Shown: one piece after another, positions 29,912-50,489 of the stretch
Layout: every line of letters starts with the position of its first letter
Numbering within the stretch: position 1 is the first letter of the stretch
Source: Eledone cirrhosa
Lineage: Eukaryota
Assembly: GCA_964016885.1 (NCBI GenBank)
Contig: OZ024763.1
Location: 27,528,001 to 27,592,000 of the forward strand
Direction of reading: 5' to 3'
Length of the DNA: 64,000 bases
Notes under the pieces: model-generated
Told to the model about the DNA's origin: nothing
Database searches by the model: none
What the model saw: the letters and a program-made list of their open reading frames with translations, nothing else
Translations under genes and position numbers: made by a program

Positions 29912-30215
29912 CATATATATATATATATGTATGTATATATATATATATATATACATATATATATATATATATATATATATATATATATATATATATATAT
30001 ATATATATATATATATATATATATGTATATATATATATATATATATATATATATATATATATATATAGATTTTGAGTTTATGTTGGTTGTATACCAACAC
30101 CTCAGTATGCAGGCTGGAGCACTCGACGAAGTGCGCAGGTTGGTTTGGTTACTCCGGAGTAGTGTAAAATAAAGTTAAATAAAAGTCAAATGATTAAAAT
30201 TTAGCTTCGTTTATT

Positions 30216-30270
30216 ACTGCTATATATATTTCAGTGACAGCCATCTTTGGCTGTGACCTCTTCAGGCAGT
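30216..30270 (-). ncRNA. Minimal type I hammerhead ribozyme
   Basis: Reverse complement of 30515-30569. Confidence 0.8.
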
Positions 30271-30514
30271 TTGAATTAGTATGGGATAGACAAGTACATA
30301 TGTTGTTTAGGTGTATGATATTGTCAATACTCTGATATGCCCAGTTCCTTGTTGGGTTGTTAATTCACTGGGGAACTGGAGTCATATAACTTCAGTCATA
30401 TGACTCCAGTTCCCCAGTGAATTAACAACCCAACAAGGAACTGGGCATATCAGAGTATTGACAATATCATACACCTAAACAACATATGTACTTGTCTATA
30501 CCATACTAATTCAA

Positions 30515-30569
30515 ACTGCCTGAAGAGGTCACAGCCAAAGATGGCTGTCACTGAAATATATATAGCAGT
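30515..30569 (+). ncRNA. Minimal type I hammerhead ribozyme
   Basis: actgc-CTGAAGA-ggtcacagcca(aaga)tggctgtcact-GAAAT(atat)ATA-gcagt. Stem I is 5 bp, stem II 10 of 11 bp, stem III 2 bp with a palindromic ATAT loop; predicted cleavage after 30564. Confidence 0.8.
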
Positions 30570-30704
30570 AATATACGAAGCTAAATTTTAATCATTTGAC
30601 TTTTATTTAACTTTATTTTATATATATATATATATATATATATATATATATATATATATATATATATATATATATATATATATGTATATGTATGTATGTA
30701 TGTA

Positions 30705-31162
30705 TGTCAAAGGGCAAAGGAGCTCTTAAGAGTCAATGGCGATCCGAAATCACCGGGAGAGATGACGCCTTAGCCTTTGTCAAGGCAGAATTCTAGGAGA
30801 GGGAAAACTCTGATATAACACCTGCAACTCTGATGGCATCCAATGATGCTGACTTGTTCTTCTTTTTGGTAAATATCATCTTGGTTAAGAGAGTGGGACT
30901 GGCTTTGTGCAGTGCCTTTGCTCACTATAAAAGCTTCACGGCACAGGCATTGCTTTATCTCTGGAGATCTCTCTGCACTTGTCGTCACATGGTACCATGG
31001 GCCCAGCACTGTGTCAATAATTGTCACACGTGTAGTGTTTGTACCAGAGTTTTCAAGTCGCTGGCTGGACTAAAAAGTCACACTTGTTCAGCGCATCGGT
31101 AGGGGTTCTCCTACATGGATATAAAGTAGTGGCCGTACTCGAAAACGAGTTGGCAGCCACCA
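30705..31162 (+). mobile_element. Second copy of the bipartite RTE-derived element, with an (ATGT)n tail
   Basis: Aligns end to end with 14316-14773; (ATGT)n on both sides. Confidence 0.8.
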
Positions 31163-31976
31163 TGTATGTATGTATGTATGTATGTATGTATGTATGTATG
31201 TATGTATGTTTACATATATCTATCTCTCTCTCTCTCTCTCTCTCTCTCTCTGTATATATATATACACACACATAGATAGATTGTTATATATATATATATA
31301 TATATATATATATATATATATATATATATATATATATATATAAAAAGATAGATAGATAGGTAGGTAAATAGACAGCCAGATCGATATATATATATGCAGC
31401 TAGGTATATATATATATATATATATATATATATATATATATATATATATATATATATATATATATAGGTAGATAGATATATAGAATTGAAAGATAGTCAT
31501 ATAGATAGATAAAGAGACAGACATACACACAGACAGAAAGTCTCACAGCTAGATAGTTTGGTAGATAGTCGTTAGTTAGGCAGATAGTTAAATTGATATA
31601 TATATATATATATATATATATGTAGTTAAATAGATTGATGAGAAACAGTTCGAACAATAAATAGACAGACAGATAGGAAGATTGATAGTTAAACTGATAG
31701 ATAAATATAGAGATAGATTGTGAGAGAAGCAGAGGAATGGATAAATAATACAAACGAAAATATTTCTGTGTATCTAACACAGAAAAATCCGCGTAAGTTG
31801 TTGATCCTTTCATATATAAATATTTAGTTATTTTCACTCAAACTCGTGTATTCGTGTATAATACATATATATATTTTAGGAACGATCGACTTTCGTCAAA
31901 TCGGACCGACGAAACAATGTTTCCGTTGGTCTTTCCAATTGCTAATACTATCTATCGGTCGCAACTCCAGGTAGAA

Positions 31977-32097
31977 GGAGCAACGTGAAATAAAGTGTCT
32001 TGCTCAAGGACATAACGCATCGCCTGGTCCAGGAATCGAACTCACAACCTTACGATTGCGAATCCAATTCTCTAACCACTCAGCCACACGCCTTCAC
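31977..32097 (-). mobile_element. tRNA-derived SINE 5' part
   Basis: Minus strand gtgaaggcgtgtggctgagtggttag...gagttcgattcctgg...ccttgagcaagacac. Confidence 0.8.
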
Positions 32098-32365
32098 ATC
32101 ATATCTATATATATATAAATGAAATGACAGGAGACTGGACTGGTGTAAATCCTTGAAAGGTTTATTATACTATGATCATTTGAATGACCGGGTTCCATAT
32201 GAATCCGGTGACATCATTAGGTATCGCAATATAACAAAGGAATATGTAAAAAGCCATGGGTCCGAAAAACCATGGGTCCGAGAAACCAGAGACAGAGAGG
32301 GCGGCTGACCAACTAGCTTCACAGCCAGCCACCCTCAAAGTATATATATATATATATATATATAT

Positions 32366-47980: not shown

Positions 47981-48751
47981 GGTCTCTCCTTCATCCTATG
48001 AACCATATTTCAACAGATAAAATAAATCCATTAAAAAGATGAACGCCCAAGAAGTAAACTATGTCAAGCAAACTAAGGAGTTGATGTGTCGCCATGAGTT
48101 GAAGAGATAAGGAAAAGAAGGGAGGTAACTCGCCTCTAGAGGTAGACACAGGAAGCAAGCCATTTCTACCTCCTTATCGATGAAGCATTGAAGTGTTTCA
48201 TCATTCTTCCATATTTTTTTTTTTGTCTTTGTTTTGTTTTGGGTTTTGCGTTAAATTATTATTGTTTTTAGAGGGCTGCGTCTTGACAGAAAGGGTATTT
48301 TCGTGAACTCTGCCTATATATTTCTTTATTCGTTCCTCTCACTCTTTCTCTTCTCTTAGCCTCTGTCTATCTCTCTGTCTGTCTCTCTGTCCGTTTGTCC
48401 TCTTTGTCTCTCTTTCTCTCTCTCTCTCTCCCTCTCTCTCTCTCTCTCTCTCTCTCTCTCTCTCTCTCTCTCTCTCTCTCTCTCGCTTTCAACTGCTCTT
48501 TCTTTTTCCCTTTTTCTCTTACTGTATATATATTCAGACGCGCGTATATCTATATATATCTCTCTATATATGCATATGTTACACGCACACACATACACAC
48601 ACACAAGGTAAAAGACTACTTGTCAACAATATCTTTTGCATTTGCATTCTTTATTCTATGTCCATACCTGCATTGTTTTGGCTTTATTATACATATTCAA
48701 ACGTTTATATATATATATATATATATATATATATATATATATATATATATT

Positions 48752-48962
48752 TAATATATATTTAATATAAAAATGGCTTCTACAGGACTAGAACTGTTTC
48801 ATTCGGGAGAAACCATCAGAACGCCCAGGGCTTCCTGGTAATTTCTCTCGAATGAAACAGTTCTAGTCCTGTAGAAGCCATTTCTATATTAAATATTTAT
48901 ACTCTGTTATGTATTGAGTACCCTACTTATTGTGGTTACCCCCGATTGAATCCGGGATAAAC
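48752..48962 (+). mobile_element. PLE-type hairpin-plus-tail in (TA)n with a degenerate hammerhead
   Basis: Arms aaatggcttctacaggactagaactgtttcattcg and its reverse complement. The minus strand reads ctgatgg...gaaac...gtc; the tail contains ttgagtac. Confidence 0.6.
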
Positions 48963-49026
48963 ATATATATATATATATATATATATATATATATATATAT
49001 ATATATATATATATATATATATATAT

Positions 49027-49397
49027 AAACGTTTGAATATGTATAATAAAGCCAAAACAATGCAGGTATGGACATAGAATAAAGAATGCAAATGCAAAAG
49101 ATATTGTTGACAAGTAGTCTTTTACCTTAGATTTATTTAAATGTCCTTAATTTTCGAGATAATATCTCTTCTTCTGAAGAAGAGATATTATCTCGAAAAT
49201 TAAGGACATTTAAGATATTATCTAAAAAATTAAGGACATTTAAATAAATCTAAGGTAAAAGACTAATTGTCAATAATATCTTTTGCATTTGCATTCTTTA
49301 TTCTATGTCTATACCTGCATTGTTTTGGCTTTATTATACATATTCAAACGTTTATACCTCATGACACAATGCTTCAAGTGAACTATAACCTCCTCCA
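49027..49397 (+). mobile_element. PLE-type hairpin (~148 bp arms) plus tail, with a minimal hammerhead at the apex
   Basis: Palindrome centred at 49175; ctt-CTGAAGA-a-gaga(tatta)tctc-GAAAATTA-agg at 49171-49205. A third copy of the distal arm is at 48604-48706. Confidence 0.75.
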
Positions 49398-49464
49398 TAT
49401 ATATATATATATATATGTATGAACAAAGAAGCGACAAATTTATTTACTTATTTATTACTGATAA

Positions 49465-49875
49465 GGATGTGATGTCTTTGAGAAAAACCGAGTGAAGCAT
49501 GCTGTTTTAAAGCGTTCACTTCGTAAGCAGGATTTAAGTGCAATGCCTGCAAAAATTCAGCAAGATTTGAGGTGCAATGTATGTCACCGATTTCTTCTAA
49601 CAAGAGCTGATTTTGTTACCCATCTGAAATCACACGAGCCGGGGTGAAATTGAGTGAACTGTGAGATGGTTATACCACCGCACACTCCACTGCATATTTA
49701 CAGTGAGTGCAGCTTAATTTACAAGCCAGCAAGTGGTCTGACCTGACATGGTAAATTGCATGAAGACACACACCAGTTGGTATTGGTGGGAGACAGACAG
49801 TTCAAGTGCCACATCTGTGAACGTACCTACAAACAAAAGCCGGACTGCAAGGTCGCATGCGTGCACATGATCTTT
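49465..49875 (+). pseudogene. RTE-type LINE C-terminus with C2H2 zinc fingers
   Basis: GCDVFEKNRVKHAVLKRSLRK...CNVCHRFLLTRADFVTHLKSHE...FKCHICERTYK(fs)KAGLQGRMRAH; same architecture as 14788. Confidence 0.7.
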
Positions 49876-50158
49876 CAGTCGTGCAATGGAGGGATGGTAC
49901 TCTTCTGACAAGAATTAACCATAAACACCCCCCCCCCCCCCCACACACACAGACACACACACATATATATATATATTTTATAAGTTTAAACTATATATAT
50001 CGCTATATATTTGGTATGCATCGATTAAACTTAAATTTAGTTTATCTATATATATATAAATGTATATATATATATAAATATAAATATATATACATACATA
50101 CGTATATATATATATATATATACATATATATATATATATATATATATATATATATATA

Positions 50159-50489
50159 TTTTGAGTTTATGTTGGTTGTATACCAACACCTCAGTATGCA
50201 GGCTGGAGCACTCGACGAAGTGCGCAGGTTGGTTTGGTTACTCCGGAGTAGTGTAAAATAAAGTTAAATAAAAGTCAAATGATTAAAATTTAGCTTCGTT
50301 TATTACTGCTATATATATTTCAGTGACAGCCATCTTTGGCTGTGACCTCTTCAGGCAGTTTGAATTAGTAATTACTAATTCAAACTGCCTGAAGAGGTCA
50401 CAGCCAAAGATGGCTGTCACTGAAATATATATAGCAGTAATAAACGAAGCTAAATTTTAATCATTTGACTTTTATTTAACTTTATTTTA
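50159..50489 (-). mobile_element. Second copy of the 30069 PLE end with shorter arms (~118 bp); hammerheads at 50305-50359 (-) and 50384-50438 (+)
   Basis: Same tail and same outer boundary as 30069-30620; apex ttagta-at-tactaa at about 50371. Confidence 0.85.

What the first reader, a model, noticed from the sequence alone, without database searches (positions are those of the whole stretch)
30069..50489. Twin palindromic elements, each carrying two intact minimal hammerhead ribozymes
Seen: 30069-30620 and 50159-50489 share a ~96 nt tail and the same outer boundary (ctttatttta then TA) but fold back at different points (arms ~223 vs ~118 bp). This indicates independent insertions, not a segmental duplication. 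Each arm has a complete CUGAAGA/GAAA/AUA core with a palindromic ATAT loop 3. Known: PLE pLTRs carry minimal type I hammerheads that cleave as dimers, and PLE copies often have an inverted truncated pLTR. Inference: an active or recent (TA)n-targeting family. A transcript of either strand would contain a ribozyme plus its own antisense, so cleavage competes with long dsRNA formation (ADAR or siRNA substrate).
Basis: partly seen in the sequence, partly recalled or inferred. Interest (0 to 1): 0.7.

Follow-up and report, generated by a model that had tools for sequence, protein, structure and literature searches.

The report
Penelope retrotransposon run-off hairpins with hammerheads
These two hairpins are short copies of a young Penelope-type jumping gene present at least 2,000 times in this animal genome, and because most short copies stop at one exact base while no long copy does, its enzyme likely copies two kinds of RNA, a linear one and probably a circle.

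Summary
Observation confirmed. Both elements are head-to-head copies of the 3' end of a young Penelope-like element (PLE) with the motifs of the Hydra clade. The parent is 4.1 kb; one copy has an unbroken 891-aa RT + GIY-YIG ORF, and its end differs from element 1 by one base. The genome holds 2,009 exact tail and 3,740 exact ribozyme matches. Foldback plus tail is known PLE anatomy: 16 of 30 unselected copies have it, as do other families in this window.

The copy ends add more. About 60% of arms stop at one base (+1, window 30387/30398), yet 0 of 58 copies that hold the ORF start stop there and 24 run through it. Few stop at the ribozyme cut. Likely, +1 is the RNA's 5' end, two cDNAs start at two fixed sites 97 nt apart, and long copies come from an end-less, probably circular, template. 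No RNA data were available.

The scan reached a two-site/circle reading before, for ORF-less retrozymes of this genome.

The parts
30068..30164 (-). Element 1 tail (97 nt); equals the 5' leader that follows the pLTR in the parent; its end is RT start site 1
   Evidence: L041 and L064 read on from the tail into the ORF
30165..30387 (-). Element 1 tailed arm: 223-nt pLTR from the fixed start +1 (30387) to the pLTR end
   Evidence: 1 difference from the pLTR of intact-ORF copy L093
30216..30270 (-). Minimal type I hammerhead, predicted cut after 30221 on the minus strand
30388..30397 (.). 10-nt junction, an imperfect repeat of the element's first bases (likely re-priming or repair scar)
   Evidence: similar scars in L002, L009, L011, L029, L034, L035
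30398..30620 (+). Element 1 tail-less inverted arm, +1 to pLTR end (RT start site 2), followed by (TA)n
30515..30569 (+). Minimal type I hammerhead, predicted cut after 30564
50159..50253 (-). Element 2 tail (95 nt)
50254..50371 (-). Element 2 tailed arm, 5'-truncated at about pLTR position 107
50305..50359 (-). Minimal type I hammerhead, predicted cut after 50310 on the minus strand
50372..50489 (+). Element 2 tail-less inverted arm, followed by (TA)n
50384..50438 (+). Minimal type I hammerhead, predicted cut after 50433
29913..30067 (.). (TA)n target array beside element 1 (the other side is 30619-30705)

Best explanation
The two elements are short, ORF-less insertion products of a young Penelope-like retrotransposon with Hydra-clade motifs, each likely made by two cDNAs primed from the two ends of a cut (TA)n target at two fixed sites 97 nt apart, which likely ran off the 5' end of a linear RNA (+1; element 1) or stopped early (element 2) and were joined head to head. 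Shown: the parent with RT and C-terminal GIY-YIG, the (TA)n target, the two fixed 3' ends, the fixed 5' end of short copies and its absence from long copies. Inferred: +1 is the transcription start; the arms are two separate cDNAs of one template; long copies and partial tandems come from an end-less template, most likely a hammerhead-cut, ligated circle. The four ribozymes are passengers here and are predicted to be silenced by their own antisense arm in read-through transcripts. Odds: PLE product 0.97; two-site priming 0.75; +1 is an RNA 5' end 0.7; circular template for long copies 0.5.
For: Parent: pLTR-tail-ORF-3'UTR-pLTR units of about 4.13-4.15 kb (L064, L092); unbroken 891-aa ORF in L093 with RWK, DKT, LYRDD, CNCRNPESC, VY..YIG, CKLC, CRH, shared with 14 aligned homologues. 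Fixed 5' end: a 20-mer just inside +1 has 2,234 matches; adding 10 nt upstream leaves 797 (36%), adding 10 nt downstream leaves 2,057 (92%); 201 foldbacks are centred exactly on +1. Of 58 mapped copies with the ORF start (59 found), none begins between -19 and +36, 24 read through +1 and 34 end from +37 to +343; at a 60% stop rate, 0 stops in 24 passes has P about 3e-10. So the DNA sequence itself is not the stop. Both site-1 and site-2 arms stop at the same base. +1 is TC|ATAT with a CCAAT 52 nt upstream. A second, unrelated-looking family with the same protein motifs also starts at one TT|AGTC site in 19 of 30 arms. +1 arms occur in all main haplotypes that read-through arms have. Tail-less ends also close long main arms (L083, L092-L094, L098), and either arm of a foldback can be the longer. 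Arms of one insertion share private alleles; direct repeats within a locus differ by 1.1% (122 of 11,138) against 2.9% between loci. Only 42 matches could be truncations at the ribozyme cut, and 6 of 12 viewed are loop expansions. Two internal RT start sites that bound the tail were shown in vitro for an anole PLE (PMC11167929); a circular template was proposed in PMC4209133.
Against: No RNA evidence for a start site, cleavage or circle was obtained. In vitro the anole PLE inserted without ribozyme cleavage (PMC11167929). L064's two direct repeats differ at three subfamily-diagnostic sites (107, 116, 117), which one circle should not give, and a few foldbacks have arms that differ at a diagnostic site (L014, L029). 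Unequal arms could also come from central deletions after insertion. Long copies could be copied from read-through or multimer transcripts; no full dimer is among the 59 ORF-start matches, but the assembly may lack one. In the second family +1 falls inside the predicted ribozyme's loop II, so a transcript from +1 would lack half the core at its 5' end. The Inr match is loose and the motif is recalled. Pfam and PDB searches did not name the protein; clade assignment rests on motifs, not a tree.
Confidence: 0.6

Rival explanations
1. Same PLE family and same RNA 5' end at +1, but no circle: long copies come from linear read-through or tandem-multimer transcripts that begin upstream of +1, or from template jumps to the RNA 3' end; the hammerhead only trims transcripts.
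For: Ribozyme cleavage was not needed in vitro (PMC11167929); L064's direct repeats differ at diagnostic sites; D. virilis Penelope is transcribed from the upstream pLTR of partial tandems (PMC2377424, passages).
Against: Any template that begins at +1 should give some long copies ending at +1; 0 of 58 do. Upstream lengths vary from 20 to over 970 nt, with no flanking host DNA shared between loci in the junctions printed; no full dimer among 59 ORF-start matches.
Confidence: 0.25
2. Foldbacks arise by self-priming (snap-back) of one strand at the palindrome TCATATGA or on an antisense template, as proposed for rotifer PLEs, and +1 is a fold-back or nicking site rather than an RNA end.
For: +1 lies in an 8-bp palindrome and 201 foldbacks are centred on it; arms share private alleles; PMC3846280 (passages) proposes self-priming for head-to-head palindromes.
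Against: Many +1 copies have no inverted arm. Long copies cross the same palindrome without stopping. A second CATATG at about +85 and the (TA)4 ribozyme loop are not hot spots. The second family's fixed start is not palindromic. Snap-back on a tailed cDNA does not explain why the second arm ends at the pLTR boundary or sometimes reaches further 5' (L046, L048, L050, L059, L080).
Confidence: 0.1
3. The short copies are a separate non-autonomous SINE- or retrozyme-like family descended from one master whose 5' end was +1.
For: All 30 best matches to element 1 begin at +1; retrozymes are reported to derive from pLTRs (bioRxiv 10.64898/2026.07.22.740005, parts 1-2).
Against: +1 arms share every main haplotype with read-through arms, e.g. 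37 against 38, 7 against 16, 11 against 8; no head-to-tail array of the short unit was seen in the loci printed. Promoter-bearing truncated copies could still act as many small sources.
Confidence: 0.04
4. The palindromes are long-read foldback artefacts or a MITE-type DNA transposon.
For: Element 2 is a perfect palindrome without a loop.
Against: The inverted arm stops at the pLTR boundary and lacks the tail, flanks differ on the two sides, fold points vary, and a parent RT exists. Contigs of three other runs of one sample cross the same fold point with two letters fewer.
Confidence: 0.01

Closest known systems
Hydra-clade Penelope-like elements (Craig et al. 2021, PMC8557442; passages, supplement part 2 of 59 and one supplement search), including Hydra-1_Obim and Penelope-13_HM
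   Same: C-terminal GIY-YIG, RWK, DKT, CxCX5C linker, no CCHH, canonical hammerhead near the 3' end, (TA)n target; Penelope-13_HM is listed with an inverted 5'-truncated copy and a hammerhead on each strand.
   Different: Different ribozyme sequence from Hydra-1_Obim; 4.1 kb against under 3 kb as a rule (about 140 extra residues after the RT core, 1.3-kb 3' UTR); tail 97 nt against the 30-40 bp given for PLEs; a fixed 5' end of short copies was not in the passages read.
PAc (Poseidon of Anolis carolinensis; Frangieh et al. 2024, PMC11167929; parts 1-2 of 4 read)
   Same: AT-rich target, both strands cut and extended, two internal RT start sites that bound the tail, hammerhead upstream of them.
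   Different: Penelope/Poseidon clade; start sites lie in the ORF, here in the leader before the ATG; run-off end and long-copy template were not addressed in the parts read.
[quoted passage not shown]
   Same: Short stem I, long stem II, palindromic stem III; pairs 100-700 bp apart on opposite strands already noted in Schistosoma; circular template proposed.
   Different: G-U instead of G-C at 10.1-11.1 in 153 of 159 arms; the circle was a proposal without genomic end statistics.
Adineta vaga Penelope families (Arkhipova et al. 2013, PMC3846280; passages)
   Same: Direct plus inverted pLTRs of about 200 bp, tail on one arm, palindromes at the inverted junction, solo pLTRs.
   Different: Explained by self-priming and by recombination; low copy number, so no end distribution.
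Metazoan non-LTR retrozymes (PMC7229834, passages; bioRxiv 10.64898/2026.07.22.740005, parts 1-2 of 5)
   Same: About 300 nt, type I hammerhead, PLE link.
   Different: Retrozymes are head-to-tail arrays without an ORF; these are head-to-head end fragments of an autonomous element.

Membership tests
Hydra-clade PLE | Single ORF with RT and C-terminal GIY-YIG endonuclease | tested here: met
   891-aa ORF with LYRDD, then VY..YIG and conserved R, H, E, N; by motif only, Pfam gave no hit
Hydra-clade PLE | RWK motif and DKG changed to DKT | tested here: met
   RRMRWKAF and HADKTNN; features
Hydra-clade PLE | CxCX5C linker; no CCHH; CxxC and CxH around E and N | tested here: met
   CNCRNPESC; one C between VY and YIG; CKLC..E..N..CRH
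Hydra-clade PLE | Canonical hammerhead near the 3' end and (TA)n target | tested here: met
   28 of 30 unselected copies with (TA)5 or more at the 3' end
Hydra-clade PLE | Generally short, under 3 kb (a tendency, not a strict rule) | tested here: not met
   unit about 4.13-4.15 kb
Hydra-clade PLE | RT phylogeny within the Hydra clade | not tested
   named Hydra reference proteins were not among the sequences held; 42 of 44 proteins compared were unnamed or hypothetical
EN+ PLE insertion structure | Partial tandem pLTRs, inverted 5'-truncated copy, tail on one end | tested here: met
   16 of 30 unselected copies have an inverted arm; tail 97 nt, longer than the 30-40 bp reported
Minimal type I hammerhead | CUGAnGA, GAAA and UH core with stems I and II | tested here: met
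   stems I and II pair at 0.73-1.0 in the isolated motif; core intact in 149 of 159 arms
Minimal type I hammerhead | G10.1-C11.1 pair | tested here: not met
   G-U in the window copies and in 153 of 159 arms; C in 6
Minimal type I hammerhead | Self-cleavage as a dimer | not testable with these tools
   a modelled dimer pairs the palindromic loops; no assay
Non-LTR retrozyme | Head-to-tail array of two or more short units, no coding parent sequence | tested here: not met
   head-to-head arms; sequence is the end of an ORF-bearing element
MITE or foldback DNA transposon | Terminal inverted repeats at both ends and fixed structure | tested here: not met
   tail lies outside the repeat, fold point varies, RT parent exists

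The most novel reading that the evidence does not exclude
This family records two RNA templates of one Penelope-like element in its copy ends: a linear RNA whose 5' end gives strong-stop-like run-off products (about 60% of arms, including element 1) and a hammerhead-made 4.1-kb circle that gives all long copies and regenerates the pseudo-LTR by more-than-one-turn copying, with two RTs primed on opposite strands of the target at fixed sites.
Probability: 0.4. Interest if true: 0.72.

Novelty: new member of a known kind. Interest (0 to 1): 0.5.

Why it matters
The loci themselves are ordinary for this genome. The family matters because how PLEs regenerate their pseudo-LTR, why they form head-to-head repeats and what the hammerhead is for are stated as open in the papers read (PMC2377424, PMC8557442, PMC11167929). 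Here a young family with thousands of copies, a natural unbroken ORF and exact coordinates (RNA start at +1, cut at +167, RT starts at +223 and +320) gives a sharp contrast, about 60% stops against 0 of 24, that separates the models and can be tested with one 5'-RACE, one divergent RT-PCR and one in vitro reaction. The many hairpin insertions would also be a source of double-stranded RNA if transcribed; that was not shown.

Tried and rejected
Rfam scan of the window: no match at gathering score. Tail-only DNA search: no candidates, common words are skipped; exact patterns were used instead. First reading that this is a separate non-autonomous unit (all 30 best hits start at +1) was a selection effect and was dropped. 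No PLE ORF was seen in the window among the ORFs displayed. Pfam gave one weak unrelated hit and PDB none; one Pfam family asked for was not in the library. RNA runs: no RNA holder listed; three contig sets of one sample were laid on element 2 and cannot show starts or expression. Truncation at the ribozyme cut: not a hot spot. A-to-G clustering: none in 252 arms. Literature searches for a fixed 5' end or twin priming in PLEs: 'Penelope + pLTR + strong-stop' 0 papers, 'Penelope-like + twin priming' 3 listings, none on PLEs by title, 'solo pLTR' 1 paper, read in passages. [quoted passage not shown] (not held; known only through PMC6765202) were not seen and may describe constant pLTR ends. The other 58 parts of the Craig supplement and all bioRxiv supplements were not read. 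No fold or complex prediction was run.
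Full report
Observation. Element 1 spans 30068-30620: a 97-nt tail, then arms 30165-30387 and 30398-30620 (223 bp, 2 mismatches, 10-nt junction). Element 2 spans 50159-50489: the same tail, then perfect 118-bp arms without a loop. Both lie in (TA)n. The tailed arms are identical over 212 nt. Rfam has no match. The element's sense is ribozyme then tail; below, positions count from the first base of element 1's arms (+1): predicted cut after +167, pLTR end +223, tail end +320.

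Family. The window lies in a 3.0-Gb genome, likely a cephalopod: the two homologues with a species label are from Argonauta and Octopus. Exact matches: tail 22-mer 2,009, 53-nt ribozyme 3,740, controls 0. In the first 30 tail matches on contig C1, taken without selection, 16 have an adjacent inverted arm, 28 have (TA)5 or more at the 3' end, and the tailed arm starts at -3 to +10 in 12, reads further upstream in 10 and is shorter in 8. Mean divergence between loci is 2.9%.

Parent. Same-strand tail matches 3.5-4.1 kb apart led to partial tandems of pLTR, tail, about 50 more nt of leader, ORF, 1.3-kb 3' UTR and pLTR. Of 20 further long loci, L093 has an unbroken 891-aa ORF from its ATG, and its pLTR differs from element 1's arm at one base. 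The protein has RWK, DKT, LYRDD, a CNCRNPESC linker, VY..YIG without the CCHH cysteines, CKLC and CRH, all shared with 14 aligned homologues. These are the features that Craig et al. 2021 give for the Hydra clade (PMC8557442, passages). Their supplement lists one octopus member, Hydra-1_Obim, with another ribozyme sequence, and Penelope-13_HM with an inverted copy and a hammerhead on each strand. Pfam and PDB did not name the protein, and no tree was built. At least 59 copies hold the ORF start.

Two fixed 3' ends. Copies end at +320 (tailed) or +223 (tail-less). Tail-less ends close inverted arms and also long main arms (L083, L092-L094, L098), so +223 is an end in its own right. This matches the two internal RT start sites shown in vitro for an anole PLE (PMC11167929, parts 1-2). 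In foldbacks either arm can reach further 5' (tail-less longer in L038, L046, L048, L050, L059, L080, L096, L114; tailed longer in L005, L009, L014, L028, L043, L063, L115), and the arms share private alleles. I infer two cDNAs from one template, primed by the two ends of the cut target and joined head to head. Later central deletions could also make arms unequal, and L014 and L029 have arms that differ at one diagnostic site.

One fixed 5' end, for short copies only. A 20-mer just inside +1 has 2,234 matches; with 10 more bases upstream 797 remain, with 10 more downstream 2,057. So about 60% of arms end within those 10 bases; 201 foldbacks are centred exactly there. In contrast, of 58 mapped ORF-start copies (one of 59 was not fetched), none begins between -19 and +36; 24 read through +1 and 34 end between +37 and +343 without a peak (positions upstream of about -60 are approximate because of an indel and the end of the reference). 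At a 60% stop rate, 0 of 24 has P about 3e-10. A cause in the DNA or RNA sequence (hairpin, palindrome, TA microhomology, re-cutting) should stop long cDNAs too. The stop is set by position, not length, since arms from +223 and +320 end at the same base. It is not inherited from one master: +1 arms occur in all main haplotypes of read-through arms (159 arms). +1 is TC|ATAT with CCAAT at -52 and -182 (the Inr likeness is recalled), and D. virilis Penelope starts transcription inside its pLTR (PMC2377424, passages). The family next to element 2 (29,849 matches) has the same protein motifs and starts at or near one TT|AGTC site in 19 of 30 arms (the pattern itself began at that site). The best reading is run-off at the RNA's 5' end.

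Template of long copies. A linear RNA from +1 cannot give sequence upstream of +1 in front of the ORF, and should leave long copies ending at +1. An end-less template fits: smooth 5' ends, no peak at the cut (42 candidate matches, 6 of 12 viewed being loop expansions), and direct repeats within a locus that differ by 1.1% against 2.9% between loci. Cervera and de la Pena proposed a hammerhead-cut circle for this (PMC4209133, parts 1-2). Against it: the anole enzyme did not need cleavage in vitro, L064's repeats differ at three diagnostic sites, read-through or multimer transcripts are not excluded, and no RNA was seen. I put the circle at 0.5.

The ribozymes in the two elements. In isolation stems I and II form, stem III hardly does (0.08-0.09), and a modelled dimer pairs the palindromic loops. 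In a head-to-head element the antisense arm comes first on either strand and the two ribozymes are on opposite strands, so no cis dimer is possible; folding of full and partial transcripts buries the core. Cleavage is therefore unlikely in read-through RNA. A transcript starting at +1 in the centre of element 1 would carry a free ribozyme, but the upstream CCAAT region is missing there. No A-to-G clustering was found in 252 arms (sample biased to unedited copies).

Comparison and verdict. Foldback, tail and paired opposite-strand hammerheads are described (PMC4209133, PMC8557442, PMC3846280 passages), and several other foldbacks of this build lie in the window. This is a new family of a known kind. 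The fixed 5' end of short copies and its absence from long ones was not found in the searches, which do not cover subscription papers. Earlier notes of this scan reached a two-site and circle reading for ORF-less retrozymes of the same genome; I saw them after my own tests, did not check their loci and do not count them as support. Interest 0.5; novel case probability 0.4, interest 0.72 if true.

Noticed in passing
window 50547-50752 (related pieces at 17722-17810 and about 32735-32850): Foldback plus about 88-nt tail of a second, far larger family (29,849 exact 21-mer matches) with Hydra-type RT and EN pieces in L118 and L119. Its fixed start lies inside loop II of a predicted hammerhead, most copies with a U3-A8 core.
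   Followed up: partly
tail ends of family copies, e.g. L007, L067, L078, L090: (TC)3-34 sits between the tail end and (TA)n in 18 of 96 tail ends, in 0 of 58 ends flagged tail-less (9 of them variant tails) and at 13 of 1,520 background TA-array ends; likely reiterative slippage of the RT on the UC at its start site.
   Followed up: partly
window 3919-4063, 29338-29452, 48754-48900, 49028-49356, 51117-51382, 33644-34034: Further foldbacks in (TA)n, several with a one-sided extension of 60-100 nt, probably other PLE families.
   Followed up: no
window 32925-32980, minus strand: Another minimal hammerhead with the same UAUAUAUA loop but other stems.
   Followed up: no
window 48606-48705 and 49028-49127: A 100-bp perfect inverted copy of the 49028-49356 element's arm encloses the 48754-48900 foldback; looks like nested insertion into shared (TA)n arrays.
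   Followed up: no
L093 protein P0001, about residues 480-620 and 690-745: Two low-complexity insertions (about 140 and 50 residues) missing from most homologues, placed like the N-rich inserts of rotifer PLEs; a G run in the first is a frequent frameshift site in other copies.
   Followed up: no
L056 1240-1640: A short sequence beside the 5' end recurs twice after the tail, a possible target-site duplication.
   Followed up: no
window 37709-38674 (+), 55707-56568 (+), 61438-63543 (+): Fragments that look like non-LTR retrotransposon ORFs (family labels not tested).
   Followed up: no
window 4524-8176, 10699-11282, 16104-17564, 25469-26003: Tandem arrays with 5/10/15-, 117-, 123- and 194-nt periods.
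   Followed up: no
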